A program made the translations under genes and the position numbers. A DNA stretch of 63,718 nt, filler included, from Reclinomonas americana ATCC 50394 (Eukaryota): NCBI GenBank assembly GCA_048213135.1. It is 8 parts of 4 records of this genome, joined end to end, with 100 filler letters (N's around TTAATTAATTAA, not from the genome) between each part and the next. Parts side by side here need not be neighbours in the genome. Positions count along the whole stretch, not along the records: positions 25,479 to 52,081 come from PS015139.1; 7 more parts are not named here. One strand, written 5' to 3'. Under the pieces are notes generated by a model. It was not told the origin of the DNA and did no database searches. It saw only the letters and a list, made by a program, of their open reading frames with translations. Below, piece by piece: positions 2,921 to 56,539 of the stretch (its first letter is position 1; every line of letters begins with the position of its first letter).

Positions 2921-3020
2921 NNNNNNNNNNNNNNNNNNNNNNNNNNNNNNNNNNNNNNNNNNNNTTAATTAATTAANNNNNNNNNNNNNNNNNNNNNNNN
3001 NNNNNNNNNNNNNNNNNNNN
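2921..3020. other. Artificial ~100-nt gap spacer N-TTAATTAATTAA-N (also near 13129, 23318, 25423, 52126, 56484, 62127)
   Basis: An identical 12-mer with stops in all frames sits in the middle of N runs. It is an assembly convention, not genomic DNA. Confidence 0.97.
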
Positions 3021-5176: not shown

Positions 5177-6200
5177 TCACTCGCCCACTAGAGCGCGCAG
5201 TTTCTCCTGATCCACAGCCCGCCGATCAACGCGCGCATCCGCAAGCAGCAACCGCGCAGTGTCCTTGTGGCCAAACTCCACTGCGCGGCGAAGGACCTCG
5301 CTGCCCTTCGTCGCCGGATCGGCTCGCCCGTCGGCCAAAAAGGCAGCGACGACTGCCGCGTGTCCACCAACGACTGCGTCGCGGAGGCAGTGGTAACCGT
5401 GACTGGCCACAAAGGCGTCCATTTTTGACTCGCCGAGGAAGTACTGCACAACATCCACTCGTCCCCGGCGTGCTGCCGCAAAAAGCGGACCGGCATCGGA
5501 GAGGACGACGCGTGGATCCGCAAACAAGAGGCGCACCATTTCCAAATGGCCTTTGTCTGCTGCAGTGGAGAGCGCGTTCTGGGTGGGATCAACACGTCCG
5601 TCCACCAAGAGCAGCTGCACCACGTGCGTAAGGCCTTCGTCGACTGCCCATTCGAGGGCGTAGCCATTTCCGTCGGCCGGGTCCACTTGCGGGTCGGCCA
5701 AGATTTGCCGCACAGCGTCGACCTCGCCGCGCACAGCGACCGCGCGGCACACAAAGTCCGTGTTCAAGCACGCACCGTCCACGCGCGGATCGGCAAGCAG
5801 TACACGCATCACCTCTGTGTATCCCAGTCTCGCAGCGACCTTAAACGCATAGTTGTGGTCGGCCGCTGGATCAACGCGCGGGTCGGCCAGCAGCAAGCGA
5901 AGGCAGTCGATATGCTTGTAGCCGGCCGCGACATACACGGCTTCGTTGTCGTACGTGGCAGGGTCCACGCAGTCGAGAGTGAGGAGGGCGCGGACAACTG
6001 CAGTGTCGCCCAACAAAACGGCTTTGCGAAAGGCCCATTCGAGAGACGAGATCATCTCGGCGCGAAGCTCATCCATGGCCATGTCGACAGTTGCATCTGC
6101 CGGTGGCGGTGGCGAGGGTGGTGCAGGCTTGATCGTAAATGTGAGTGAGTGAGCGAGATAGAGAAGAGGGCAAAGGGAGGTGTGACACACACACACACAC

Positions 6201-6249
<49 letters not shown>

Positions 6250-6270
6250 CACACACACCTGCTCCGACAT
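5177..6270 (-). CDS. Ankyrin-repeat protein (DPRVDP type), ~320 aa, 2 exons (6270-6259, 6127-5177)
   Basis: ATG TCG GAG CAG|GT, (TG)n intron, AG|CCT joins in phase 0 to give MSEQ-PAPPSPPPP.... About 8 repeats of the form A...G...VVRLLLADPRVDP (e.g. AAGYKHIDCLRLLLADPRVDPAADHNYAFKVAARLG). Confidence 0.9.
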
Positions 6271-6914
6271 TTCGTAACCAAGATAAACAAAAATTTGTCT
6301 TGTCGTCCGGCCGGCGCGCGTACGCAGGACCCGCACATCAACTGGTCACCACTGCTGGTGGAAGAGGTGGAGAAGACACCGCGGTGGCGCTGGGTGGACG
6401 AAGGAGTTGCCGTTCACATTGCGCTGGTTGTGGTACAGTACATGTACAGTTTTGCGCATACATACGAAAACGTTCGTTCTGTGAACGAGTTTGTGCTGCG
6501 GAGAAATGCACCGCTGTGCACATCGCATTGTGCAGAATGCGGTAATCCAGAGCTGCTCGCAGCCCAAGCGGCAATCATCCTGATCCGCCGACGTCGATGT
6601 TGACGTCGACGTCGCGATATCGATTGGTTGGACGTGACAACGACATTCACCAACAGACAAGCAACAACTGTCTTGATGACCAAGTTCGCACTTAGCGTAT
6701 GACGCACAGCATTTCCACATCCAATTTTCGGCAAGGCGAAGCCACAACCCTTGTCCGTCTTCTTCCATTTCCCCCTCTCCCTTCTCCCGTTCTCCCTTCA
6801 CCCGCTGCAGAGTTCGGTCTCGTGATGACTCTCTTCCCTCACTTAAAAAAAACGATTAGCAGTGCTACTTCATTCAGGAAACCCCTCCAATCTTCTCTCC
6901 TTTCATCTGTCAGA

Positions 6915-16883
<9,969 letters not shown>

Positions 16884-17468: not shown

Positions 17469-20400
17469 TTACGGAATACCAAGCGCGTAAGAAAAGTCAG
17501 GCATGACTGTGCCGATAATGCGCTCCACAAGCCCGCGAGTGTTTCGACGCATAAGGTGAACCGATGAGCCTGACACTCGAGCCGAGTGAGTGGCACTGAA
17601 TGCCATGCCACCAAATGATGCACCAAGACCTCCCTCCGGGTCCACGAGATCAGCCTGAGCATTATGTGATACTTGCTTGCCACTAGCCAGTGACCATACC
17701 CGCACAGAACCACCATAGCAGCTGCATACAACGCACATGCCATCAGGAGTGACGGATAGATGCCGCACCCATGAATCGTGTCCCTCCAGTCGATGCACTT
17801 CTGCTCCACTCACTAATGACCACACTCGCGCTGAATTGTCATCACTACCGCCAATAACGTGTTGACCATCAGGTGTGACGGCGACGGACAACACTCGGCC
17901 GCGGGGCCAGTTCTCGTCTATCTCTATAGCGATTCGTTGCACTTCTTCGCCACTCGTCAGTGACCACACTCGCACTGTCCTGTCGTCACTTCCACTCACC
18001 ACATGTTGATTGTCGGGAGTGAAGGTGACACAGTTCACCCCGTTAGTGTGCCCCTCAAATCGTCGAACTTCCTCGCCACTCGCCATTGACCACACTCGCA
18101 CTGTATTGTTCCGACTGCTCACAATGTACTGACCATCTGGGGCAGTAGCGACGCAGGTCACTGCATCTGCGTGCCCATCAAATTGTTGCACTTGTCTGTC
18201 ATCTGCAAGAGACCACATCCGCACTTTTGTTTCACGTCCCCAGCTTAGAATGTGCTGTCCATCAGGAGTAAACGCAACACATGTTGCAGTCATAGGGAGC
18301 CGACAAAACCGTGTAACATCTGCAATGTTTTCTGTGCAGCAAACACTCACAGTCCCATCCATGCTTACAATCGCCACATGGCGACCGTCAGCTGATACAG
18401 AAACTGGTAATGGTACATTACTCAGCCCATCAACCTTCCACAACTCGTCACCGTTTGCCACAGAGTACAATCGCACTGCACCATCGTCTCCAGCACAAAA
18501 AAGATGCGCGCCGTCGATGGAGAGCGCAGCGAAATGGATTGTACCTAACTGCACTGCCGAGTGGCGCATCTCTTCACCAACAACAGACCACAAACGCACT
18601 AAATTGTCCCCGCCACCACTGACGATGTACTTGCCATCAGGAGTGACAGCGACAGAGTGGACACCACCAGAATGCCCTTCGATTCGTCGCAGCTGCTGCC
18701 CGGTATCCAATGACCACACTCGAATGGTACTGTCACCTCCACCGCCGCTCACAATATAGTGACTATCTTCCGTGACAGCAACTGACGACACCCACGCAGT
18801 GTGGCCTTCCAGTCGGCGCACCTCGTATCCACTTGCCAATGACCACACTCTCACAGTCTTGTCACCGCTACCGGTTACAGCATGCTGCCCGTCGGAAGTA
18901 ACGACAACTGAACTCACTCGTTGAGTGTGACCCTGCAACTGTCGCACTTCTTGACGAGCATTATGTCCCATGGATATTGACCACACACGCACGCAGTTCT
19001 CGAAAGTGCAACTCAAGAGGTGCTTACCATCTGGTGTTATCGCGACACAGATTGCATGCATGCGTTCAAATCTTGATGTTGTCGACTGTAACACTTCATT
19101 TCCATTCCCCAGACTCTCCAGCGGACAGACTTCCACAGTCCCATTAGACGTAGTAACTATCAAGAAGTCGTGAGAGAACGACACAAACGTAATCAAGTTA
19201 TCCATTTCGCCACTTCTAACTAATTTTCCACGTGGAAGCGTACATACACGAAATGTCCCACCTTGACTCCGACTCACAACACGCCGACCGTCATTTGTAA
19301 TGGACAAAGACGTCACCGGCGACCTATGCTCCGCGATTGGCTTCCTCGGCCACTTCACACCCCTCACATCAGCATCCGTGAAGTCCGCCTCCCTCGCATA
19401 GGCCGTGCACACATTCACCCCTCGCAAATCCGCTCCCCTCCACACCGTCCGATGCATCACTGCATCCCTCAAATCCGCACCCCTCATTCGCACGCCAGAC
19501 AGATCTCGCCCACTGAACGACACTTGTGCCGCACACAACACCGTCGCCGCATTCGAAGCTGCCGTCACCAGTCGCTTCTCATCCACCTCCCGTGACAACT
19601 CAATCACCTCCCACAGTCTCGCTTGCAATCGAGGAGACCGTCGCACCACCTCGGCCATCTGCTCTACCAACGATGGTCTGTCATTCAGCAATCGCACTGC
19701 CAACACATGCTGCTGCACATCCTGCATCGTCAACTTCCTCTCCTCGTCCCACGTCTCCCATGCAAACACATGTCGTGCCACACAGTGCTCCAACAACGAC
19801 AGATGCACGAATCCCCACTGCGTCGTCCCATACCGTCGCACAATCGGACAGCACGCTCGCACATGCTGGTTCTTGTGACCGAGGAACTTGTCAAACGGTC
19901 CCTCCTCCAAGCGTCGCGAGGCGCGTGGTGCACCACCAAAGTCATCCTCCTCTCCGATATCACCTGCTAACCGACTCTCCAGCACAGACACACGCACCAC
20001 ATTCCTTTCATGCATCAATCGTGCCAGTCCCTCACAGAATGCCAGACATGTCTCCTCACTTGGCACACGCTCCGCGCCAAGTCGCGTCTGCCTCTCCTGC
20101 TCCCTCCCAATCCATTGTCGTATAAATCGGTCAAACACGTCACACCGAGTCGGTCGCTGAACGCCACTTGCCACCAACTGCGGCAGCACACGAGCCACCA
20201 CTGCCAGTAGGAACGGATTTGACACCAGTGCATCCAGTCCTTGGACACTCTTCAGTGCACGAATATACTCCTCGGCAGTCGACCATCGCACTTCACCGTC
20301 GCCGTCATCATCACCACCCACTTGCACGAGCCGATCAAAGTACTCCTCAATCTGCTCGTTGTTAAATGGCGCAATGTGTCGCTCTGACAGCTGCTGCATG

Positions 20401-22210
20401 CACAACTGTCCTCGTGCATCCACCGGTGCAAACAACCGTCGATACTGCGCCACTCCACCCAGTGCCGTCAGTGCGTAATCGCCTCGACAGGTGATAATCA
20501 CCTTCACATCGCGACACACATCCAGCTGGTTCTTGACAAACAGATTCACACCACGATACAACTCATCGTATCCGTCAAGCAACAACAGCAACGGCTCCTC
20601 CTTCAGCCGTCGCACATCCGACTCCAATCCTAACTCGGGCGACAGTCGCTCAAGTGCCTCCTCCAACAATCGCTCATCGGCATTTCGCAGTGCGCCGAGA
20701 GGCACACGCACAGGCACTCGTCTGCTCTCTCTCGTCTGCCACTGTCGCCACGCTCGCTCAGCCAGCACCGACATGGTGGTGGTCTTGCCAGCTCCACTGT
20801 TGCCGAACAGCACCAGTACACGGTGGGTGGTGTTGGTGTCGGAGAGAAAGGCATCCACCTCCGTGGACAAATCCGTCATCTTCTCTCTCGAGGAAATGTC
20901 ACGCTCTCGTGAGCACAGCAGTGGCACGTACATCTGCATGTCCTTGCGCACACACTCGTCGTGCTGGTAGAACGAGAGCTCACGCACAGCCAGTCGATGC
21001 AGTCGCTCCTCGAATGTGTCCACGATGTGTCGAGCGTGACGGGCCTCAACGATACGAGCAGTGAATTGAGCTCGCTCGTCAGCCGTCAGCTGCAGTCGCG
21101 AGAGGATGGAGAAGAAGGCACCACTGTCACCGAGGTATTGCTGCACAGTGGTCTCGTTCAACACAAGTCCCTTGTGCGCCAACACGTTCCTCACGTCACG
21201 CAGCTCTTCCACAGCCTTCCGTTCATCAGCACCGTCAATCAACAACTGGCGACCGTCCTCCAGCACAAAGCCACCGAACAGCATGATGGAGGCGAGTGCA
21301 GTCACGTCGAAACCGTCACACGGAGGATCGGATGAGGGGTCAGCGTCAAATGCAGCACGCCACGCCAAGATCAACGTTTGCGCTTCTTTGAAAATATTGA
21401 CAACGCGCCCCGTAACTGGCACATGCATATCGTGCCATGCCTTCACGGCCGCCGCATGCATGGGCTTGGCTGTCGGCACAATGCTGGGCACCCACAACCA
21501 GAAATCGTCGGAGTTGATCCGCGGGGACCAGAGATCCACTGCCCATGCCCGCACATCGAAGTCGGCATGATCACGACTGAATTGCGCCAGTGTGCGTTGA
21601 CAGCGCAGACGCACAGCCTCCTCCACCACCTCAAAGGCCATGTTTATGCGCTGTGAGTTGATCATGCTGTGCGTGCACTCAAACTCAGTCAGTACAGACT
21701 CGCTCAGAGTGGAAGAACAAGGAAGGGAGAGAGGAGGATGACGAAGACAAGCACAACAAACCGAGTCACTCGCTCCGAGTTGCTGTGTGAAGACATGAGA
21801 GTGAGATGCATGTTGTGCACAGAGGGATGATTCACAAACACATGCACCTTCCACTCCCACTCCCTCCACTCGGCCGCAGCGCCGAGCCAAGTGTCAGACG
21901 GACGACGAGATGAGTCGATGAGTTAATGCCGAGATCTTCCAGCTCCAACACATCAGCCTTGGCCATCTTGTATGCTACAGGCTTCTCCACCCCCACAATC
22001 TCCATCTCCCCATCTCCACTCTTCTCACGCAGCAAGCGAGTGGCCTCGCACAGCAAGTCCGCGAGAGTGGACATGGCTGACATGCCCTCCACCACCACCG
22101 ACAGCGATGAATCATGTGCCGCACTCACATTCACAGAAAACTGTGCACAGGCAAGGATGGTGAGCACACACAGGATAAGTGGAGAAGGCATAAACACCAC
22201 ACACCGACAT
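17469..22210 (-). CDS. NLR-like STAND protein A: ubiquitin-like + HEPN + NACHT + pentapeptide + 13 WD40, ~1505 aa; exons 22210-22205, 22140-21848, 21782-21762, 21666-17469
   Basis: Four GT-AG exons total 4518 nt and stay in frame. Motifs: Ubl-like FSVNVS...STLADLL...LEDLGINSSTHLVVRL; FDVTALASI...ELRDVRNVLAH; Walker A GNSGAGKT; Walker B LLLLLDGYDE; FSGRDLSGVRMRGADLRDA; GH...TPDG...SGS.D.TVRVW repeats. Confidence 0.92.
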
Positions 22211-22445
22211 TGTGTGCGTGTGTTCTGTTCTCAGTCGTGTTTCTCACAAATTCCTGTCAATGAAGTTGTCATGGACTTGGTGGGTTTCTTTGGTGGGCAC
22301 CAACCCGCAGGGAAAGGGGGAAAGGAGGGGTTGCTGCGAGAATGCCACACTGAGTTCCACCACCTCGGATGCCCCGGGCCCATCTCCTTTTTTTCAAAGC
22401 TGATGGGCTTGAGACTTTCTTTCGTCGCCTCCCTGCAATCCGCCT

Positions 22446-27373
<4,928 letters not shown>

Positions 27374-28269
27374 CTGCAACGAGGAACAAAGAGTGAGGTG
27401 GGGGAGAAAGGTGAGAAAGGGAAGGGCAGAGCGAGAGAGAGAGAGAGATGGAGAACGAATGAGAGAAAGAAGAGTGAAAAAGCGAACAAGAGAGGAGGGA
27501 GTGGAGGGGTAGGAATAAGTGCAAGAACGAGAGACAAAGGTGCATGAGTGGGAGAAGAGAGAACGAGGAGAGAATACAAGAAGAGGAGAGGAGAGAGACA
27601 GTGAGCCTGTGAGAGTGTGCAAATGAGAGAGAGGGAGAGAGAGACTGAGAGAGAGAAAGAGAAAGAGAGAGAAAACTTAGGAGAGATGGAAGAGTGAAAA
27701 GCGTGCGAGAGAGCAGAGAGTGGAGGGGTAGGATTAGGAGCGTGTGCACGAGCAGAGTGCAAGGATGAGAGACAAAGGTAGAAAGAATGAGGAGAGAGAC
27801 AGTGAGTACGTGCAAGAGTGTGCACGAGTGACGAAGGGAGAAAGAGACAGAGAGACAGAGAGTGCGTCAGAGAGGAAATAGTGAGAAACGGAGAAAGAAT
27901 GACACAATGAAACAAATGAGATTGATAATCACAATGCGTGCATATGCGTGCGCACGAGTGTGTGCGCGCGTGCGTGTGAGAGAGAGTGAGAAGAACACAG
28001 CGCGCAACTGCACACGAGAGAGAATGCAACACGCACGAACATCGGATTAATCACCCCTTCTCTTCCCCTTTTCCTNNNNNNNNNNNNNNNNNNNNGCCCT
28101 TTTCTCTCTCTCTCTTCCCCTTTTCCTCTCCTCCTCCTCTCCTCCCCTTCTCTCCTCAACTCTTCTTGATGTTCCACCCGAGCATCGCTTGCAGAAACAC
28201 GCCAGGTTTGACAACCTTATTGACAGGAATTTGTGTGAAACACGACTGAGAACAGAACACACGCACACA

Positions 28270-31200
28270 ATGTCGGTGTGTGGTGTTTATGCCTTCTCCA
28301 CTTATCCTGTGTGTGCTCACCATCCTTGCCTGTGCACAGTTTTCTGTGAATGTGAGCGCGGCGCATGATTCGTCACTTTCGGTGGTTGTGGAGGGCATGT
28401 CGGCGATGTCCACTCTCGCGGACTTGCTGCGCGAGGCCACACGCTTGCTGCGCGAGAAGAGTGGAGATGAACAGATGGAGATTATCGGAGTGGAGAAGCC
28501 GAGTGCATTCGACTTGGAGGACGTGGGCGAGTTGAAGTTGAAATCACTCGGCATTAACTCGTCCACTCATCTCGTCGTCCGTGTGACACTTGGCGTGGCG
28601 CTGCAGTCGAGTGGAGGGAGTGGGAGTGAGAGTGGAAGGTGTGTTTGCGAATCATCTCTCTGCGCCAAGCATGCAGCTCACTCTCATGTCGTCGCACAGC
28701 AACTCAGAGCGAGTGACTCGGTTTGTTCTGCTTGCCTTCGTCCTTTTCTCCCCTGGTTGTTCTTCGTGCGATGCGAGTCTGTGCTAAATATGTGCTAAAT
28801 ATGTGTGTGTGCACACATGCAGCATGATCAACTTCAATCGAATCTGCATGGCCTTTGAGGTAGCGGAGGAGGCTGTGCGTCTGCGCTGTCGACGCGCGTT
28901 GGCCCAGTTCAGTCGCGATAATCCCGACTTTGATGTGCGGGCGTGGGTGCCGAGTTTCACGCCTACTGGCATGGATGCGGCGGCAGTGAAGGCATGGCGT
29001 GAGCGACATGCTCCACTCCACCCCGGACGAGTCAAGATGTTTGAGGAGAAGCAGCCTGTGGCGTTGGCCTGGCGTGCTGCCTTTGACAGCGACCCCTCGT
29101 CCGACCCTCGGTGCGACGGATTCGACACGACGGCACTCACCTCCATTATTCTGTATGGTGGCTTCGTTCATGATGACGGTCGCAAGATGCTGCTGATTGA
29201 CGATGTTGATGAACGCAAGGCAGTGGAGGAGCTGCACGGTGTCAGGAACAAGCTGAGACACGATGAGTTGCCGTTGACGGATGCCAGTGTGCAGGAGTAC
29301 CTTGGTGACTGTGGGGTCTTTCTCTCCATCCTCTCTCGACTGCAGTTGTCGGCTGATGAGCGAGCTCGATTCTCTGCTCGTATCTGTGAGGCACGTCACG
29401 TCCAGCACATTATCAGCACATTCGAGGAGCGACTGCATCGATTGGCTGTGCGTGAGGTCTCCTTCTACCAGCACGACGAGAGTGTGCGCAAGGACATGCA
29501 GATGTATGTGCCACTACTGTGCTCACGTGAGCGCGATGTTTCCGCGAGAGACAAGATGATGGATCTGTTGACGGAGGTGGATGCCTTCCTCTCCGACAAG
29601 AACACCACGCACCGTGTGCTGGTGCTCTTTGGCAACAGCGGAGCGGGCAAGACCACCACCATGTCAGTGCTGGCTGAGCGAGCATGGCGACAATGTCATA
29701 CGGGAGAAAGCAGACGAGTGCCTATGCGTGTGCCTCTTGGTGCTCTGCGCAATGCCGATGAGCGATTGTTGGAGGAGGCATTGGAGCGACTGTCACCCGA
29801 GTTAGGTTTGGAGTCGGATGTGCGACGATTGAAAGAGGAACCACTGCTGTTATTGCTTGACGGGTACGATGAGTTGTACCGTGGTGTGAATCTGTTTGTC
29901 AAGAACCAGCTGGATGTGTGTCGCGATGTCAAGGTGATTATCACCTGTCGTGGCGATTATGCGCTGACGGCACTGGGTGGCNNNNNNNNNNNNNNNNNNN
30001 NTCTCCGACACAGACACACGAACCACATTCCTCTCGTGCATCAACCGTGCCAGTCCCTCACAGAATGAGAGACACACCTCCTCACTCGGCACACGCTCCG
30101 CACCAAGACGCGTCTGCCTCTCTTGCTCCCTCACAATCCACTGTCGAATGAATCGGTCAAACACATCGCACCGAGTCGGTCGCTGCACACCACTCGCCAC
30201 CAACTGTGGCAACACATGAGCCACCACTGCCAGCAGGAATGGATTCGACACCAGTGCATCCAGTCCATGTACACTCTTCAGTGCACGAATGTACTCATCG
30301 GCAGTCGACCACCGCACTTCACCATCGTCATCACCCACATGTACCAGTCGCTCGAAGTATTCTTCAATCTGCTCCGTGTTGAACGGAGCAATGTGTCGCT
30401 CCATCAGCTGCTGCATGCACAACTGTCCCCGTGCGTCCACCGGCGCAAAGTACCGTCGATACTGCGTCACNNNNNNNNNNNNNNNNNNNNNNNNNNNNNN
30501 NNNNNNNNNNNNNNNNNNNNNNNNNNNNNNNNNNNNNNNNNNNNNNNNNNNNNNNNNNNNNNNNNNNNNNNNNNNNNNNNNNNNNNNNNNNNNNNNNNNN
30601 NNNNNNNNNNNNNNNNNNNNNNNNNNNNNNNNNNNNNNNNNNNNNNNNNNNNNNNNNNNNNNNNNNNNNNNNNNNNNNNNNNNNNNNNNNNNNNNNNNNN
30701 NNNNNNNNNNNNNNNNNNNNNNNNNNNNNNNNNNNNNNNNNNNNNNNNNNNNNNNNNNNNNNNNNNNNNNNNNNNNNNNNNNNNNNNNNNNNNNNNNNNN
30801 NNNNNNNNNNNNNNNNNNNNNNNNNNNNNNNNNNNNNNNNNNNNNNNNNNNNNNNNNNNNNNNNNNNNNNNNNNNNNNNNNNNNNNNNNNNNNNNNNNNN
30901 NNNNNNNNNNNNNNNNNNNNNNNNNNNNNNNNNNNNNNNNNNNNNNNNNNNNNNNNNNNNNNNNNNNNNNNNNNNNNNNNNNNNNNNNNNNNNNNNNNNN
31001 NNNNNNNNNNNNNNNNNNNNNNNNNNNNNNNNNNNNNNNNNNNNNNNNNNNNNNNNNNNNNNNNNNNNNNNNNNNNNNNNNNNNNNNNNNNNNNNNNNNN
31101 NNNNNNNNNNNNNNNNNNNNNNNNNNNNNNNNNNNNNNNNNNNNNNNNNNNNNNNNNNNNNNNNNNNNNNNNNNNNNNNNNNNNNNNNNNNNNNNNNNNN

Positions 31201-34031
31201 NNNNNNNNNNNNNNNNNNNNNNNNNNNNNNNNNNNNNNNNNNNNNNNNNNNNNNNNNNNNNNNNNNNNNNNNNNNNNNNNNNNNNNNNNNNNNNNNNNNN
31301 NNNNNNNNNNNNNNNNNNNNNNNNNNNNNNNNNNNNNNNNNNNNNNNNNNNNNNNNNNNNNNNNNNNNNNNNNNNNNNNNNNNNNNNNNNNNNNNNNNNN
31401 NNNNNNNNNNNNNNNNNNNNNNNNNNNNNNNNNNNNNNNNNNNNNNGTCAATCAAGTGAGGATGACTTTGGCGGCGCTCCACTCGACCGTCGACGAGTGG
31501 AAGATGGACCGTTTGACAAGTTCCTCGGACACAAGAACCAGCATGTGCGAGTGTGCTGTCCAATTGTGCGACGGTATGGGACGACGCAGTGGGGATTCGT
31601 GCATCTGTCGTTGCTGGAGCACTGTGTGGCACGGCATGTGTTTGCGTGGGAGACGTGGGACGAAGAGAGGAGATTGACGATAGAAGATGTGCAGCAGCAT
31701 GTGTTGGCAGTGCGACTGCTGAATGATCGACCATCGCTGGTGGAGCAGATGGCCGAGGTGGTGCGACGGTCTCTTGCATTGCAAGCGAGGTTGTGGGAGG
31801 TAATTTATTTGTCTCGCGTGGAGGATGACGATCGAGTGGTGACGGCGGCGGCGAATGCAGCGACGGTGTTGTGTGTGGCACAAGTGTCGTTCAGTGGGCG
31901 AGATCTGTCGGGTGTGCGAGTGAGAGGTGCGGATTTGAGGGATGCGGTGATGCACCGGACGGTGTGGAGGGGAGCGGATCTGCGAGGAGTGAATGTGTGC
32001 ATGGCATATGCGAGGGAGGCAGATTTCAGGGGTGCTGAGGTGGCGGGTGTGAAGTGGCCGAGAAAACCGATGGAGGGGCACACTGAATATGTGACTTCTG
32101 TCGCCATTACACCCGATGGCCAGCATGTTGTGAGTGGCAGTGAGGACAAGACTGTACGGGTGTGGTCGCTGGCAAGTGGCGTGGAGGTGCACCGACTGGA
32201 AGGCCACACGGGTTGGGTGACTGCAGTGGCTGTAACACCTGATGGCAAGCTCATTGTTAGTGGCAGTCGGGACGAGACTGTACGGGTGTGGTCGGTGGCA
32301 AGTGGCGAGGAGGTGCGCCGACTGGAAGGTCACACGAGTTGGGTGTCTGCAGTGGCAGTGACACCGGATGGCCAGCTTGTTGTGAGTGGCAGTGGGGACA
32401 AGACAGTGCGAGTGTGGTCGGTGGCAAGTGGCGAGGAGGTGCGCCGACTGAAAGGCCACGCTAGAGGGGTGAGTGCGGTGGCAGTGACACCCGATGGCCA
32501 GCACATTGTATGTGGCAGTTGGGACGGGACTGTACGAGTGTGGTCAGTGGCGAATGGAGAAGAAGTACGACGACAGGAGGGACACACGAGTGGGGTGTGG
32601 GCAGTGACAGTGACACCCGATGGCCAGCTCATCGTGAGTGGGAGTGATGACAAGACCGTGCGAGTGTGGTCACTGGCGAATGGAGATGAAGTGCGACGGT
32701 TCGATGGGCACACTGCCGCAGTATACACTGTCGCCGTCACTCCCGATGGGCAGCACGTCGTCAGCGGGAGTGAGGACTTGACTGTGCGGGTTTGGTCACT
32801 AGTGAGTGGCGAAGAAGTGCGGCGGTTGGAGGGACACACTGGTCCGTTGCATTCAATCAAGATTACTCCTGATGGTCAGTATATCGTGAGTGGGAGTGCA
32901 GATATGACAGTGCGAATGTGGCCTGTGATAGGTGATGAAGACGTACGACGGCTGGGTGGACACACCGAAGTGGTGCATTCAGTTGTGCTCACCCACGATT
33001 GTCAGCATGCTGTGAGTGCCGGTGATGACGGCACGGTGAGAATGTGGTCTGTGTCAACAGGCGAGGAACTGTGGAAGGTGGCAGGACAGTCCTCCGAGTT
33101 TGCTGTTTCTCCAGATGGTCAAATTGCTGTGAGTGGGAGTGAGGACGGGTCTATTCTGGTGTGGTCGTTGGTTCGTGGAGAAGAAGTGCGACGATTCGAG
33201 GGGCACGATGGTTATGTAATGTGTGTTGCCGTCACTTCCAATGGTCAGTACATTGTCAGCGGAGGCTGTGACAAGACAGTGCGAGTGTGGTCATTGGTGA
33301 GTGGAGAAGAGTTGCGGCGGTTGGAAGGACACACTGGAAGGGTGACATGTGTTGTCGTAGCTCCTGATGGTAAGCATATTGTGAGCGGAGGTGGACACGG
33401 GACGGTGCGAGTGTGGTCATCAGCGAGTGGAGAAGAAGTGCGACTGTTGAGGGGACACGCTTTCAGTGTGAACTCCGTCGTTGTCACTCCTGATGGTCAG
33501 CACATCGTTAGCGGGAGTTATGACAGCACAGTACGAGTGTGGTCACTGGCAAGCGGGGAGGAGATGCGCCGACTGGAGGGACACACTGGATTTGTGCAGT
33601 CTGTTGCCGTCACTCCTGATGGTCTGCACGTCGTAAGTGGGAGTCGGGACGGTACGATACGAGTGTGGTCACTGGCGAGTGCTGAGAAGATGCGCCGACT
33701 GGTACACACTGACAGTGTGAAGTCTGTCGACGTCACTCCCGATGGCCAGTACATCGCGAGCTTCAGTGGTCACGGAGAAGTACGGGTGTGGTCACTGTCG
33801 ACTGGAAAAGAAGTGCCTCTTGATGAGCAAGCGGATCTAGTGAACCCCTCAGCGGAACGTGTGACTTATCTTCGCTGCATGGCGTACGGTTCTGCGTTCT
33901 CCGCCCGTGTGTCCGGCAAGAGGATCTTTCTGATGCATCGAAACACCCGCGGGCTTGTGGAACGTATTCTCGGCACCGTCTTGCCCGACTTTACCAACGC
34001 GCTTGGTGCTTTGAGTGGCGTCGCACCTTGA
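28270..34031 (+). CDS. NLR-like STAND protein B: ubiquitin-like + HEPN + NACHT + pentapeptide + 14 WD40; exons 28270-28275, 28340-28638, 28700-28720, 28823-34031 (interrupted by gaps and a flipped contig)
   Basis: Same exon structure and phases as paralog A. Motifs: FDTTALTSII...ELHGVRNKLRH; GNSGAGKT; LLLLLDGYDE; pentapeptide block; 14 WD40 units, mostly 42 aa (126 nt), at ~32070-33815. Confidence 0.92.
30002..30470 (-). other. Mis-oriented contig carrying the missing middle of gene B's NACHT region
   Basis: Reverse complement reads VTQYRRYFAPVDARGQLCMQQ...NVVRVSVSE. This continues ALTALGG (ending 29981) and, by alignment to paralog A, precedes EDDFGGAP (~31458). N gaps on both sides. Confidence 0.9.
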
Positions 34032-37395: not shown

Positions 37396-40300
37396 TTCTG
37401 CTGCTGCGGGCACCGCACCGACGACAATGACATCCTCACCGCCCTCCACGGCCCCGGCGGCCGCCGCACCAGCCAACCCGCCGTCCTCTCCCCGCAAGCC
37501 GCCCGCACCAGTCCCGTCGCCAACAGCAGCGGCGGCGGACGCGGCCGCGGCCGCAAGAGACCACTCTCTTTCCGCCAGTCGGCCTCCAGCCCCCGCTCAC
37601 TCCGTCCCGTCGACTGGCTCGCCCTGCCGCCCTCCACCATCCGCATGCGATTAGCGGCCCTGCGAATCGAGCGCTGGTGGTTGCAGCTGCTCGAGGAGCT
37701 GCGCACGGCCGGCTCATCGTCGCAACTGTTGCGTCACTGGTTGGCCAAAGGTGTGATGATTTTTCTTCTGACTTTTGTATTTGCAGTCACCGGAGACGAT
37801 CCGCCGCGCTGACCATCACTGTCGCCTGGCGCCACCGGCTGATGAGCAAGCGCGTGCACAGAAGAAGAGCAGCGGGCGTCATTGCCAATGCGTACCGCTG
37901 GCACCTCTTTCGCCGATCGGTGCAGCGCATCAGTTGCGTTCTCGCCCCCCGCACGGCAAAGACTGCGTGATGCTCACCCTGTCGCGCAGAGCAAATGTTC
38001 TCGGCTCGTCGACTCGTGCTGCAAGAAATACTACAATCCGAGGAGCAATACGTGAACAATCTGCGCATGTTGCTGGAGGTTTGGATGCGCCGAGGAAGGG
38101 CAGGGAATCTATGACTTGCGTGTATTGATCAATCCGCAGCTGTTTCACGAACCGCTGCTGCGACTGGACCGCGCCGGTCGCCCGCTGCTGCCGCTGGACA
38201 AGATCGCCGTCATCTTCTCCAACGTGCAGGACATTTTGCACTTGAACATGACGCTGCGCAGTCATTTGGCGGCGCGGCTGCCGTTTGTCACTACGCGAGC
38301 GTGGCAGAGTGGGAAGCCGTCGGTGGCGGGGGTGTTTTTGCAGGCGGTGAGTGGATCGAAAAGGGGAAGGGGGAGGGGAGGGGAAGAAGAAAGAAGAGGG
38401 AAGCGAAGGAGGAGGGACGGCGAGAGACAAAGTTGGAGGGTGGCATGGAGGCTGGGCAAAAGAATGAGGGAGAGAGAGCGAGAGAGAAAGAGAAAGAGAG
38501 AGAGGCAGAGGTTGTAAGAAGAGGATAATGCAAGAGGAAGAATAGAACATAGAGAGGGACACGAATGAGGTTTAGGAACTCCGCTTTCTCTACAGGTTTC
38601 CTTGCTGTTCTCTCCTCACCTTTATCACTCTTCCTCCTCTCTTTTCCTCCTGTCTCTCTCCTCCTCCTCTCTTTTTCCTCCTGTCTCTCTCTTTCTCACT
38701 CGCTCTTTCGCTCTCTCTCTTCTCCTCCTCTCTCTCTCTTCTCCGGTCTCTCTCCTCCTCTCTCTCTCTCCTTCTCTCTCTCCTCCTCTCTCTCTCTCTC
38801 TCCTCCTCCTCTCTCTCTTTCTCTCTCCCTCTCTCTCTTTCTCTCGCTCTTTCCTCCTCCTGTCTCTCTCTCCTCCTCCTCTCTTTCTCGTCCTCTCTCT
38901 CTCTTCCCTCTCATTCTCGCCAGATGCATCTCTGTTCTTTCCTTCTCCTCACCTCTGTTCTCTTGTCTCCTCACCTCTGTTCTCCCCCTCTCCCCTCCTC
39001 CTCACCTCTCCTCTCCCCCACGCAGGTCTCCAACCTGACGCAATACGCCGACTACGTCGCCCGCTCGGAGAACGCCGTCGCCATGCTGGATCAGTGTCGT
39101 TCGAAGTACACTCAGTTTGCGCGATTCCTGGAGGTTTGCGCCGTTCGTGTTCTGCTGTCTCGTATCAAAGCTCACTTTCTGCACAACAACAGGAGACGAG
39201 CCACTCACCTGAACTGGCCGGTCGGCCTCTCGAAAGTCTGCTGATTGTGCCGGTGCAGAGATTGCCCCGCTACATTCTGCTACTCGAGGTTTGTGTCACT
39301 TATTTCACATGGCTTGCGCTATTCAATTGCTCTCTCTCTCTCTCTCTCACTCTCTCACCACTGCTCCACAAATGCCATCTCCTGCTGCACTTTTATCTGT
39401 TTGTCTCCTTTGTTTCTCTCATCCTTTTCTCTCACAGGCCGTTTCTCTCCTCGTCCTCTGCTCCTTGTGATTCACTCTCGTCTGTACTGATTGATTCTCT
39501 CTACTCCCGGTGCCACATTTGTGTGCTCTTCTCCGTCCCGCCGCTAATTGTTCTCTTCTTTTGCATTTTTCTCTTTCTTTCATTCCTTTCTCTTTCCCTC
39601 TCCTTCAATCTCATTCTCTGTGTCTCTTTCTATTTTTCTCTGTCTCGCTCTCTCAGCCGACTTTTTTCTTTCCTTTTCATTTCCACCGTTCCCTCTTCGC
39701 CCCCTTCCCCTTCCCCTTCCCCTTCGACTTCGACTTCCACTTCTCACTCTCCATCCCCTTCCCTCCCTTCCCTCCATTCCCCTTCTCTTCTGTTCCCCTT
39801 CCCCATCACCTTCCCCATCACCTTTCCCTCTTTGCCCCCTTCTCCTTCCCCTTCCCCTTCCCCTTCCCCTTCACCCTCCCCTCATGCCCCCTTTCCCCTC
39901 CCAGGACCTTCTGAAGCGCACCCCCGACTTCCACGAGGACTACCTCCCCCTCCAAGAACTCATCCCCAAGATGCGCGAACTCACCCTCTTTGTCAACGTG
40001 CGCACTGGCGAAGTGGAAAACGTGTACGCCGCGCTCACTCTCATGAAGAAGCTTCACAACTTTAACCCGGCAGTTGAGTGTTTCTCCCTACTTCCCTCGC
40101 TATGCTGCATCTCTCTTATCATCATCATGTCACAGACCGTCTTCTCTCCATCCTCCGTGGTGCTGGTGGACGGCTTCCTGGCTCTTCGCGGCGACATGGA
40201 GTCACTCGGCATCACCGAGGCATCGCTCGTGCCACTGCAGCTGAACGGCGATAGCGACGACGACGAGAGCGGCTCCGATGATGAGAGTGATGTGGAGCGG

Positions 40301-51935: not shown

Positions 51936-52248
51936 CTGCATGCGGAAGGAGTGAGAAGCGAGGGGAGGGAGGGAGGGGGAGGGAGAGGGAGGGGGGAGGG
52001 AGGAGGGAGGGGGAGGGAGGGGAGGGAGAGGGAGGGAGAGGGGGAGAGGAGGGAGGGAGGAGGGAGGGAGGAAGGAGGAGGNNNNNNNNNNNNNNNNNNN
52101 NNNNNNNNNNNNNNNNNNNNNNNNNTTAATTAATTAANNNNNNNNNNNNNNNNNNNNNNNNNNNNNNNNNNNNNNNNNNNNAGGTCCCACATCTGTGCTA
52201 CATTTTTTCTCTCTCAAAAAGTCCAACGTACACATCCACTCGCGGCAG

Positions 52249-56372: not shown

Positions 56373-56539
56373 GTGCGTGTGTGGGAGAATCTCCTGCATG
56401 TGTCTGCGAGATGTCTGTGCAGAGTGAGAGAATTTCTTCNNNNNNNNNNNNNNNNNNNNNNNNNNNNNNNNNNNNNNNNNNNNTTAATTAATTAANNNNN
56501 NNNNNNNNNNNNNNNNNNNNNNNNNNNNNNNNNNNNNNN

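What the first reader, a model, noticed from the sequence alone, without database searches (positions are those of the whole stretch)
28270..28823. Hidden N-terminal ubiquitin-like module attached through a 6-nt first exon and a 21-nt micro-exon, conserved in both NLR paralogs
Seen: ATG TCG|GT...CAG|TTT TCT GTG...GGA AG|GT...CAG|C AAC TCA GAG CGA GTG ACT CG|GT...CAG|C ATG ATC joins without frameshift in B, and identically in A (22210-21666). The ORF track shows this as a separate ORF. The ~95-aa exon has a ubiquitin-like pattern (two N-terminal strands, STLADLL helix, L..LGINSSTHLVVR ending). Established: Ubl header domains precede toxin domains in Crinkler-type effectors. Inference: the module was exon-shuffled onto an intronless HEPN-NACHT-WD40 core and could be a trafficking header, decoy or oligomerisation module. 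The central loop differs between paralogs (PVAYKMAKADVLELED vs PSAFDLEDVGELKLKS).
Basis: partly seen in the sequence, partly recalled or inferred. Interest (0 to 1): 0.7.

Follow-up and report, generated by a model that had tools for sequence, protein, structure and literature searches.

The report
Spliced-on N-terminal domain of NLR paralogs
Two head-to-head immune-receptor-like genes of a jakobid-like protist carry a small, lineage-restricted protein domain encoded by short 5' exons that ordinary ORF finding misses; it may be ubiquitin-like, but that fold is not shown.

Summary
In both paralogs (B +28270..; A -22210..) an ATG-TCG first exon, a 299/293-nt exon 2, a 21-nt exon 3 and the large exon 4 join in frame across GT..AG introns.

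Exon 2 is coding. In A vs B codons 1-54 there are 13.5 synonymous and 4.5 non-synonymous differences (dN/dS about 0.08), and the bias disappears in a shifted frame.

Among 1.84 billion proteins only 3 hit exon 2. All three are ORFs from Reclinomonas americana ESTs. Two start MS-FSV / MAT-FSV, which is the spliced exon1-exon2 junction in cDNA. One retains the intron.

No RNA evidence covers introns 2 and 3 or the micro-exon. These rest on conserved splice signals, intron lengths that differ by non-multiples of 3, and stops on read-through. The NLR could also start at the ATG that opens exon 4.

The ubiquitin-like fold is unproven. Two AlphaFold2 models have pLDDT 57 and 59, with a strand-strand-helix-strands order. 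Fold searches give Z of 4.8 or less with no clear ubiquitin-like match, and there is no Pfam or PDB hit. Only language-model neighbours point to the ubiquitin clan. No link to Crinkler headers was found.

Downstream lie a sub-threshold HEPN, then NACHT, pentapeptide repeats and WD40.

Verdict: a real, orphan N-terminal module on NLR-like genes, of moderate interest.

The parts
28209..28269 (+). Gene B: conserved 5' leader. This is where A/B homology begins, about 61 nt upstream of the ATG.
   Evidence: The inverted-repeat arm I3 starts at 28209/22271. 63 of the 70 nt upstream are identical, against 66 of 130 further out.
28270..28275 (+). Gene B exon 1: ATG TCG (Met-Ser), a 6-nt coding first exon.
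   Evidence: The EST ORF P0005 begins MS followed directly by FSV.
28276..28339 (+). Gene B intron 1: 64 nt, GTGTGTGG...GCTCAC...GCACAG.
   Evidence: It is 64/64 identical to A. The EST ORF P0006 retains the homologous intron: its NVGVW stretch matches the translation of 28269...
28340..28638 (+). Gene B exon 2: 299 nt, 99 codons plus 2 nt. It encodes a small alpha/beta N-terminal module and a Gly/Ser linker.
   Evidence: Translation. dN/dS is about 0.08 in codons 1-54. The AlphaFold2 secondary structure is E2-9 E12-18 H26-41 E46-52 E57-60 E64-67 E78-86.
28639..28699 (+). Gene B intron 2: 61 nt, GTGTGTTT...GCTCAC...CGCACAG.
   Evidence: It is 65 nt in A, a difference that is not a multiple of 3. 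Read-through hits a stop in A straight away.
28700..28720 (+). Gene B exon 3: a 21-nt micro-exon encoding (S)NSERVT(R). It is predicted and not verified by RNA.
   Evidence: 20/21 identical to A, and the one change is synonymous in this frame. It is flanked by CACAG| and |GTTTGT in both copies.
28721..28822 (+). Gene B intron 3: 102 nt, GTTTGTTC...CATGCAG.
   Evidence: It is 95 nt in A, with 73 identical positions and indels of 5, 1 and 13 nt. There is an in-frame stop on read-through in B.
28823..29981 (+). Gene B exon 4, first part: the pre-NACHT domain (sub-threshold HEPN) and the start of NACHT. It is cut by an assembly gap. Its first full codon is ATG (28824).
   Evidence: NACHT E 4.1e-09; HEPN_Swt1 E 0.1.
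30002..30470 (-). Gene B: a mis-oriented assembly piece that carries the continuation of the NACHT region.
   Evidence: tblastn aligns A residues 405-555 to 30470-30027 at 89%. Direct repeats D4/D5 match A.
31458..34031 (+). Gene B exon 4, last part: pentapeptide and WD40 repeats up to the stop.
   Evidence: tblastn aligns A residues 573-1396 at 54.7%. The ORF ends at 34031.
22205..22210 (-). Gene A exon 1 (ATG TCG).
22141..22204 (-). Gene A intron 1 (64 nt).
21848..22140 (-). Gene A exon 2 (293 nt, 97 codons plus 2 nt).
   Evidence: 79% identical to B.
21783..21847 (-). Gene A intron 2 (65 nt).
21762..21782 (-). Gene A micro-exon (21 nt).
21667..21761 (-). Gene A intron 3 (95 nt).
17469..21666 (-). 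Gene A exon 4: one uninterrupted ORF of 1398 codons. It holds the pre-NACHT domain (HEPN-like motif RNVLAH), NACHT, pentapeptide repeats and WD40 repeats.

Best explanation
The region holds the true 5' coding exons of two head-to-head paralogous NLR-like (STAND NTPase) genes. The organism is a eukaryote whose only detectable relatives for this module are Reclinomonas americana (jakobid) cDNAs.

Translation starts at ATG 28270 (A: 22210). A 64-nt intron is removed after codon 2. Exon 2 then encodes an independently folding alpha/beta module of about 85 residues, followed by a flexible Gly/Ser linker. The strand order is strand-strand-helix-strand-(hairpin)-strand, most likely a beta-grasp / ubiquitin-like fold.

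Two more short introns, with or without the 21-nt micro-exon, join this module in frame to an intronless body: pre-NACHT effector (probably a HEPN RNase), NACHT, pentapeptide repeats and WD40.

Shown here: the exon 2 reading frame is under purifying selection, and the exon1-exon2 splice exists in cDNA of family members.

Inferred: the junctions to exon 4 and the fold. The function is also inferred. I read the module as a tethered protein-protein interaction or regulatory unit at the effector end of the receptor, which would be clustered when WD40 ligand sensing drives NACHT oligomerisation. Its divergent strand-3-to-last-strand loop would be the specificity surface.

Because exon 4 opens with its own ATG, an isoform without the module is possible. 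That ATG is probably the ancestral start, left in place when the module was added.
For: Structure and frame:
- The structure and the frame are present in both copies.

Exon 2 is coding:
- Codons 1-54 have 13.5 synonymous and 4.5 non-synonymous differences (dS 0.46, dN 0.038). The +1 frame control gives 2.3 vs 14.7.
- The exon 2 length difference between A and B is 6 nt, so the frame is kept.

Introns behave as introns:
- Introns 2 and 3 differ between paralogs by 4 and 7 nt.
- Read-through meets stops, in A within intron 2 and in B within intron 3.
- Introns 1 and 2 share a GTGTGT donor, GCTCAC about 20 nt before the acceptor, and a CACAG acceptor. An unrelated RhoGEF gene in the window has a similar GTGTTT..TCACAG intron.

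cDNA evidence:
- 3 of 3 hits among 1,835,955,588 proteins are R. americana EST ORFs.
- 2 of the 3 start MS|FSV or MAT|FSV (spliced). 1 of the 3 retains a 59-nt intron whose in-frame reading has no Met and is not hydrophobic.

Age and fold:
- dS of exon 2 (0.46) matches dS of the adjacent exon 4 (0.26-1.29; 0.54 overall for the first 404 aa), so the two have the same age.
- The secondary-structure order is reproducible in two AlphaFold2 runs.
- Language-model neighbours: the five named family sets shown for P0001 are all ubiquitin-clan. For P0003, 9 of the 10 best family-bearing hits share a family or clan with the best of them, which is ubiquitin.
- SIN1 Ras-binding domain, which I recall as a beta-grasp fold, scores E 0.069 in 1 of 3 members.

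Downstream domains:
- NACHT 41.1 bits (cut-off 26.7), Pentapeptide 34 bits, WD40 265.6 bits.
Against: - No transcript evidence covers introns 2 and 3 or the micro-exon.
- The micro-exon (20/21 identical) is not clearly better conserved than the intron ends beside it. Skipping it also keeps the frame, so its inclusion is open.
- Exon 4 opens with an ATG in both copies, so the NLR could be translated without the module.
- The EST ORF P0004 is labelled 'complete' and stops after 72 residues. P0005 stops after 79, probably through single-pass read errors, though a short stand-alone form cannot be excluded.
- The EST ORFs are 71-90% identical to B and not identical, so they come from other family members or another strain, not from these loci.
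- Fold: pLDDT is only 56.7 and 59.1. Foldseek finds nothing at E <= 0.001, and its top rows are ribosomal S6 permutants.
- VIA-align gives a best Z of 4.8 for S24e-like, HIT and hot-dog proteins. The only beta-grasp rows are streptokinase at Z 3.8 and the TONSL UBL at Z 3.2 (rank 45) for model 1. There are none in the top 50 for model 2.
- No ubiquitin-family Pfam hit appears at E <= 10, and the PDB sequence search gives no ubiquitin-like hit.
- Language-model scores are 0.86-0.91, which the tool rates as leads only.
- HEPN is below the Pfam cut-off: 16.9 bits at best against 27.5.
Confidence: 0.6

Rival explanations
1. There are two translation units. Exons 1-2 make a short stand-alone protein or an upstream ORF in the leader, and the NLR protein starts at the ATG that opens exon 4 (28824 in B, 21665 in A). 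On this reading the module is not part of the receptor.
For: - Both copies have ATG as the first full codon of exon 4.
- The EST ORFs with the module are short and labelled complete, at 72, 79 and 117 aa.
- No EST-derived ORF matching the first 150 residues of exon 4 was found among proteins of 82-263 aa.
Against: - Exon 2 has no stop at its end. Unspliced, it runs on into tails that differ between the paralogs: 6 further codons in A and about 50 in B.
- The Gly/Ser tail and its 6-nt in-frame indel look like a linker and not a C-terminus.
- Only 184 nt separate exon 2 from exon 4, and that stretch carries conserved donor, branch-like and acceptor signals.
- The spliced frame is open into exon 4 in both copies, with or without the micro-exon.
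- ESTs are single-pass reads, so early stops in their ORFs are expected.
Confidence: 0.22
2. The module is real and fused as proposed, but its fold is not beta-grasp. It would be another small alpha+beta arrangement (ferredoxin-like/S6-like, or a sheet wrapped round one long helix as in HIT or hot-dog proteins), or a new fold.
For: - The best structural rows are S6 permutants (Foldseek E 0.05-0.3), S24e-like ribosomal proteins, and HIT or hot-dog proteins at Z 4.8.
- Ubiquitin-like chains do not rank high.
- No Pfam or PDB sequence match to any ubiquitin family was found.
Against: - All these matches lie in the range the tool calls common for unrelated chains (Z under 8).
- Both models are low-confidence, so their strand pairing is unreliable.
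- The secondary-structure order fits beta-grasp.
- The language-model neighbours with names are nearly all ubiquitin-clan.
Confidence: 0.35
3. There is no intron 1. Translation starts at the in-frame ATG at 28289 inside 'intron 1' and gives MPSPLILCVLTILACAQ-FSVNV, a cleavable signal peptide, so the protein would be secreted.
For: The frame is open from 28280, and the reading looks like a signal peptide with an A-x-A site.
Against: - 0 of 3 EST ORFs show this leader. 2 of 3 start MS/MAT directly before FSV. The one that retains the intron reads ..WSVPAPCLHLNRSLSCRQ-FSV, with no Met and no hydrophobic core.
- The stretch has donor, branch-like and acceptor signals like intron 2.
- A pyrimidine tract translates into Leu/Phe/Ser/Pro by itself.
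- The upstream ATG at 28270 has A at -3, while the one at 28289 has T.
- A secreted NACHT-WD40 protein would be unusual (established knowledge).
Confidence: 0.03
4. The exon 2 ORF is a chance open frame in duplicated non-coding DNA, conserved only because the duplication is recent.
For: Intron 1 and the leader are 100% identical, so part of the similarity is recent or converted.
Against: - The synonymous bias is specific to this frame.
- The module appears in cDNA-derived ORFs that are 71-90% identical, with the same frame conserved.
Confidence: 0.01

Closest known systems
Crinkler (CR/CRN) ubiquitin-like header domains. Source: Zhang et al. 2016 as described in PMC5289972; I read passages only.
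   Same: A small N-terminal module, predicted ubiquitin-like, placed before variable enzymatic or NTPase-containing C-terminal parts in protist conflict proteins. Members also diversify as paralog families.
   Different: - No sequence match to any Pfam family at E <= 10. I recall that Pfam holds a Crinkler N-terminal model, but I did not check this in the library.
- No LxLFLAK-type motif is seen in strands 2-3.
- The C-terminal part here is a receptor (NACHT-WD40), not a CR-toxin (REase, kinase).
- There is no evidence of secretion or translocation.
HEPN fused to STAND/NACHT NTPases: bacterial HEPN-STAND proteins, and CXorf38-family HEPN-NACHT in cnidarians and cephalochordates. Source: PMC3710099; I read passages only.
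   Same: An N-terminal HEPN-type effector before a STAND NTPase. The weak hit here is to the Swt1/Abi2-type HEPN and covers an R-N-x-L-x-H motif.
   Different: - The HEPN assignment is below Pfam's cut-off here.
- An extra module sits in front of it.
- The sensor is pentapeptide plus WD40.
- No relative of the pre-NACHT region was found.
Sacsin, which carries a ubiquitin-like domain plus HEPN in vertebrates. Source: PMC3710099 Table 1, passage only.
   Same: A ubiquitin-like domain and a HEPN domain occur together in one polypeptide.
   Different: In sacsin the two lie at opposite ends of a very large chaperone-like protein without a NACHT. No homology was detected.
Fungal NWD/HNWD-type NLRs with highly similar tandem WD40 repeats (recalled, no call).
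   Same: A NACHT-WD40 architecture, paralog families, and near-identical 126-nt WD40 units in gene B (up to 84% nt identity between neighbours).
   Different: The organism and the N-terminal domains differ. I recall HET, HeLo, PNP_UDP and others in fungi, none ubiquitin-like.
Genes with an intron right after the start codon, and micro-exons (general knowledge, recalled).
   Same: A coding first exon of 6 nt and a 21-nt internal exon. Both kinds are usually missed by gene finders.
   Different: Nothing unusual in kind. Only the first is backed by cDNA here.

Membership tests
Ubiquitin-like beta-grasp superfamily | Secondary-structure order strand-strand-helix-strand-strand-(short element)-strand within about 75-90 residues. 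| tested here: met
   DSSP on two AlphaFold2 models gives E2-9 E12-18 H26-41 E46-52 E57-60 E64-67 E78-86 and the same order in A. Both models are low-confidence (pLDDT 56.7 and 59.1).
Ubiquitin-like beta-grasp superfamily | Three-dimensional similarity to solved beta-grasp structures (mixed sheet 2-1-5-3-4 packed on the helix). | tested here: inconclusive
   Foldseek finds nothing at E <= 0.001. VIA-align gives a best Z of 4.8 to unrelated alpha+beta proteins, with streptokinase at Z 3.8 and the TONSL UBL at Z 3.2 for model 1 only. The models are too poor to decide.
Ubiquitin-like beta-grasp superfamily | Significant sequence or profile match to a ubiquitin-clan family. | tested here: not met
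   Pfam at E <= 10 gives only Methyltransf_8 (0.28) and RBD_SIN1 (0.069, in 1 of 3 members). The PDB profile search gives no ubiquitin-like chain. Language-model neighbours are ubiquitin-clan at 0.86-0.89, which counts as a lead only.
Crinkler (CR) Ubl header | LxLFLAK-type motif on strands 2-3 of the header (PMC5289972). | tested here: not met
   No such motif appears in either copy or in the EST ORFs.
Crinkler (CR) Ubl header | Followed by a CR-toxin C-terminus (REase, kinase, NTPase+HTH+REase). | tested here: not met
   What follows is the pre-NACHT domain, NACHT, pentapeptide repeats and WD40.
NLR-like STAND NTPase (NACHT clade) | NACHT NTPase domain with a P-loop. | tested here: met
   Pfam NACHT scores 41.1 bits against a cut-off of 26.7, E 2.2e-10 in A and 4.1e-09 in B. 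The P-loop GNSGAGKTT is present in both.
NLR-like STAND NTPase (NACHT clade) | C-terminal repeat sensor. | tested here: met
   WD40 scores 265.6 bits in 8 stretches, plus Pentapeptide at 34 bits.
HEPN RNase superfamily (Swt1/Abi2-like) | Profile match above threshold, plus the Rx4-6H motif. | tested here: inconclusive
   HEPN_Swt1 scores 16.9 bits (E 0.0082) in A and 13.3 bits (E 0.1) in B, against a cut-off of 27.5. The match covers RNVLAH / RNKLRH, conserved in both copies.
Spliceosomal GT-AG introns (the three proposed) | GT..AG borders kept in both paralogs, non-coding behaviour, and spliced cDNA. | tested here: met
   The borders, the length differences that are not multiples of 3 (introns 2 and 3) and the read-through stops are shown. 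A spliced junction in cDNA-derived ORFs exists for intron 1 only. Introns 2 and 3 have no transcript test.

The most novel reading that the evidence does not exclude
The module is a lineage-specific ubiquitin-like adaptor of an expanded jakobid NLR repertoire.

It would be a tethered homotypic or partner-recruiting unit, with a fast-changing loop, that couples WD40 sensing to a HEPN RNase death or defence effector. Alternatively it could be released at the conserved Gly-Gly in the linker, like a ubiquitin fusion.

At least five sequence variants exist: A, B and three EST ORFs.

If true, it would be a new N-terminal signalling domain class for NLR-type immunity in one of the deepest-branching eukaryote groups. 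In the papers searched, no NLRs are in print for that group: 0 papers hold both 'NACHT' and 'jakobid'.
Probability: 0.2. Interest if true: 0.65.

Novelty: new variant of a known kind. Interest (0 to 1): 0.42.

Why it matters
NLR-like STAND receptors are built from exchangeable N-terminal effector or adaptor domains. A module with no detectable relatives outside one jakobid lineage, placed before a probable HEPN-NACHT-WD40 body, would add a new architecture. It would also show that such receptors form diversifying paralog families in Discoba.

There is a practical point too. A 6-nt coding first exon and a possible 21-nt exon hide about 100 residues from ORF-based annotation. Gene models for this genome would then truncate these proteins at the internal ATG.

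Tried and rejected
- **Own genome:** none is held, so the search for further copies of the exon was not possible.
- **RNA runs:** no RNA holder was listed for 28200-29900.
- **Homologue searches:**
  - The first 150 aa of exon 4 against proteins of 82-263 aa gave none.
  - P0001 at near length gave the same three EST ORFs.
  - Residues 1-275 of A against proteins of 768-2447 aa gave none.
  - 'Longer' and 'shorter' length classes were not searched with this tool. The HMMER run over all lengths covers exon 2 only.
- **Metagenome contig scans:** the exon 2 alignment (A3) and the pre-NACHT alignment (A5) found no confirmed relatives.
- **PDB sequence profile searches:** nothing relevant with A3 or A5.
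- **Rfam:** no family anywhere in the window, so no known RNA explains the perfectly conserved intron 1.
- **Complex prediction:** module plus pre-NACHT domain gave no answer (score 0.00). This is no evidence either way.
- **Intron-like motif count:** counting GT[GT]TGT..CACAG in the window (38 observed vs about 10 in Markov shuffles) was abandoned as evidence, because 26 of the 38 (23 at 1741-1861 and 3 at 62016-61948) come from two GT microsatellites.
- **dN/dS control:** the +2 frame control crashed, and only the +1 control was obtained.
- **Absences in fold searches:** no ubiquitin-like chain among the Foldseek rows shown, and none in the top 50 of VIA-align for model 2.
- **Rejected readings:** signal-peptide start at 28289, and a chance ORF (see rivals).
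Full report
**What is in the sequence**

On the + strand an ATG at 28270 is followed after six bases by GTGTGT. A 64-nt stretch ends in GCACAG at 28339, and an open frame of 299 nt follows (28340-28638). Then come a 61-nt GT..AG stretch, 21 nt (28700-28720), a 102-nt GT..AG stretch, and the large frame from 28823. Joined in this way the reading is MS|FSVNV...GSESG|S-NSERVTR|MINF... without a stop.

The same arrangement lies on the - strand from 22210 to 21666. There exon 2 is 293 nt, and the introns are 64, 65 and 95 nt.

The two genes are a head-to-head inverted duplication whose similarity starts about 61 nt upstream of the ATG. The 24-nt start motif occurs only at these two places. tblastn finds exon 2 only twice in the window. 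'Identical in A' is slightly overstated.

**Is exon 2 coding?**

Yes. Between A and B, codons 1-54 carry 13.5 synonymous and 4.5 non-synonymous differences (dS 0.46, dN 0.038). Read one base out of frame, the same bases give 2.3 vs 14.7. The second control frame crashed and was not repeated.

dS here is like that of the neighbouring exon 4 (0.54 over the first 404 codons). The module is therefore as old as the rest of the duplicated N-terminal half.

Codons 55-70, the loop, are almost saturated at both kinds of site (dS 0.80, dN 0.69). Codons 71-93 are nearly identical (dS 0.10). The leader, intron 1 and the first 30 nt of exon 2 are 100% identical over about 120 nt. This mosaic is best read as patchy gene conversion among family members. 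That is an inference.

**Transcript evidence**

A HMMER search of exon 2 against 1,835,955,588 representative proteins gave three hits at E <= 0.001. The word-indexed search gave the same three. The collection names all three as ORFs from Reclinomonas americana ESTs in EukProt. TBestDB lists 17,644 ESTs from cDNA libraries of that jakobid (PMC1899108, passages).
- P0005 begins MSFSVHV and P0004 begins MATFSVNV. Each has a two- or three-residue exon 1 directly fused to exon 2, as the proposed splice predicts.
- P0006 reads ..KHRNVGVWSVPAPCLHLNRSLSCRQ-FSVHV.
- NVGVW is what 28269.. gives in that frame. P0006 therefore carries the ATG-TCG-GTGTGG donor and an unspliced intron of about 59 nt that has diverged from A and B, while exon 2 stays conserved.

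So 2 of 3 cDNA-derived ORFs show intron 1 removed and 1 of 3 shows it retained. None shows the alternative start at 28289, which would give the signal-peptide-like MPSPLILCVLTILACAQ.

The EST ORFs are 71-90% identical to B. They are other family members or another strain, not these loci. With A and B they make at least five variants. From this alone I infer that the window comes from R. americana or a close relative.

**Junctions to the NLR body**

No RNA evidence could be obtained for these. No RNA run was listed. No short protein matching the start of exon 4 was found.

The case for the junctions rests on the following.
- GT and AG borders are conserved in both copies.
- Introns 1 and 2 share a GCTCAC box about 20 nt before a CACAG acceptor. 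An intron of the same style lies in an unrelated RhoGEF gene.
- Introns 2 and 3 differ between the paralogs by 4 and 7 nt, whereas exon 2 differs by 6 nt.
- On read-through, stops appear in intron 2 (A) or intron 3 (B), giving unrelated tails.
- Only 184 nt lie between exon 2 and exon 4.

The micro-exon is 20/21 identical, and its one change is synonymous. The adjoining intron ends are about as well conserved, and skipping the micro-exon also keeps the frame. Its inclusion is therefore probable, not shown.

Both copies have ATG as the first full codon of exon 4. I read this as the former start codon of an intronless ancestor. It also leaves room for an isoform without the module, and it feeds the main rival, two separate translation units.

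**What the module is attached to**

In A, exon 4 is one 1398-codon ORF. Its domains are:
- NACHT, 41.1 bits (cut-off 26.7)
- pentapeptide repeats, 34 bits
- WD40, 265.6 bits

The 275 residues before NACHT give only a sub-threshold Swt1-like HEPN match: 16.9 bits in A and 13.3 in B, against a cut-off of 27.5. That match falls on a conserved R-N-x-L-x-H motif. No relatives of this region were found. 'HEPN' is thus plausible but unproven.

Gene B is broken only by the assembly. It has N gaps and a mis-oriented piece at 30002-30470.

**The fold**

Two AlphaFold2 runs, B full exon and A trimmed to 86 residues with three-sequence alignments, gave pLDDT 56.7 and 59.1. Both gave the same element order: two strands, a 16-19-residue helix, then strands, with the last on ..HLVVR... 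That order fits a beta-grasp.

The 3-D searches decide nothing.
- Foldseek found no match at E <= 0.001, and ribosomal S6 permutants ranked on top.
- VIA-align gave a best Z of 4.8, to S24e-like proteins for model 1 and to HIT or hot-dog proteins for model 2.
- For model 1, streptokinase scored Z 3.8 and the TONSL UBL Z 3.2 at rank 45. For model 2 no ubiquitin-like chain was in the top 50.

Pfam at E <= 10 shows no ubiquitin-clan family. One member of three gives the SIN1 Ras-binding domain at E 0.069. The PDB sequence profile search shows nothing.

The ESM Atlas feature search is the only consistent pointer.
- For P0001, every named neighbour set shown is ubiquitin, Rad60-SLD or UBX-like, at scores 0.87-0.89.
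- For P0003, 9 of the 10 best family-bearing hits share the ubiquitin family or clan, at scores 0.86-0.89.

The tool rates such scores as leads. I put the beta-grasp reading at roughly even odds or a little better.

**Mechanism (inferred)**

The protein is an NLR-like switch.
- WD40 and pentapeptide repeats sense a ligand.
- NACHT oligomerises.
- The N-terminal parts are brought together. HEPN RNases generally act as dimers, so clustering would activate the effector (established knowledge).

The module sits in front of the effector on a Gly/Ser tether. Its two first strands and helix are strongly constrained, and it has one divergent loop. The most economical role is a protein-protein interaction or regulatory unit: homotypic clustering, partner recruitment, or masking of the effector until activation. 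A co-folding test of the module with the pre-NACHT domain gave no answer.

**Comparison with known systems and novelty**

Crinkler headers are N-terminal ubiquitin-like modules before enzymatic C-termini (PMC5289972, passages). The present module has no LxLFLAK-type motif, no profile match and a receptor body, so it is not a member.

HEPN-STAND and HEPN-NACHT fusions are known in bacteria, cnidarians and cephalochordates. Sacsin combines a ubiquitin-like domain with HEPN (PMC3710099, passages). The architecture here works like these, but no homology of the N-terminal parts was detected.

A search of the held papers found none with both 'NACHT' and 'jakobid'. That is one search only, and subscription literature is not covered.

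I rate the finding as a new variant of a known kind. It is a real, orphan N-terminal domain on NLR-like paralogs, hidden by short 5' exons. The ubiquitin-like label and any trafficking or decoy role remain open.

Noticed in passing
window 29982-31457: Gene B is broken by the assembly and not by mutation. There is an N gap at 29982-30001. The piece 30002-30470 lies in the wrong orientation: it matches A residues 405-555 on the opposite strand at 89%. A 976-nt N gap follows at 30471-31446.
   Followed up: partly
window 32071-33768 (+): The WD40 region of gene B is a tandem array of 126-nt (42-codon) units. Neighbouring units are up to 84% identical at the nucleotide level. Between A and B the same region is saturated at synonymous sites (dS above 1.19). 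This suggests repeat homogenisation or shuffling, as I recall for fungal NWD-type NLRs.
   Followed up: no
window 28233-28369 and 22247-22111: A tract of about 120 nt, covering the end of the leader, exon 1, all of intron 1 and the start of exon 2, is 100% identical between A and B. Yet dS in the rest of exon 2 is 0.46. It could be a recent gene-conversion tract or a constrained regulatory element. No Rfam family lies there.
   Followed up: partly
window 21494-21544 (-), gene A: A has a 17-residue in-frame insertion in the pre-NACHT domain that is absent from B (AVDLWSPRINSDDFWLW or WAVDLWSPRINSDDFWL, since the gap placement is ambiguous). I did not test whether it is an insertion, a deletion in B or an unrecognised short intron.
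   Followed up: no
window, many sites (e.g. 2921-3020, 13085-13184, 23274-23373, 25379-25478, 52082-52181, 56440-56539, 62083-62182): A pattern of 44 N, 12 bases and 44 N recurs, and there are about 30 N runs in all. This is a draft scaffold with patterned gaps, so ORFs that cross them are artefacts.
   Followed up: no
window 23158-23574, 25774-26116, 39540-39900: Long CT-rich and (CT)n low-complexity tracts lie in the 5.9-kb spacer between the two divergent genes, and in a large intron of the RhoGEF gene.
   Followed up: no
window 5177-6337 (-) and 38569-40065 (+): Other recognisable genes are an ankyrin-repeat protein (Ank_2, E 9.6e-37) and a RhoGEF-domain protein (E 1.9e-07). The RhoGEF gene has short introns of GTGTTT..TCACAG style. 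16 of the 19 large ORFs scanned had no Pfam family at E <= 0.001; the third hit was EPS8_2nd at E 0.00081, below its cut-off.
   Followed up: partly
window 22260-22273 (-), gene A leader: The leader of A has an extra upstream ATG (..CCATGACAAC..). The homologous B sequence reads TTTGACAAC and lacks it. This is a possible short upstream ORF in A only.
   Followed up: no
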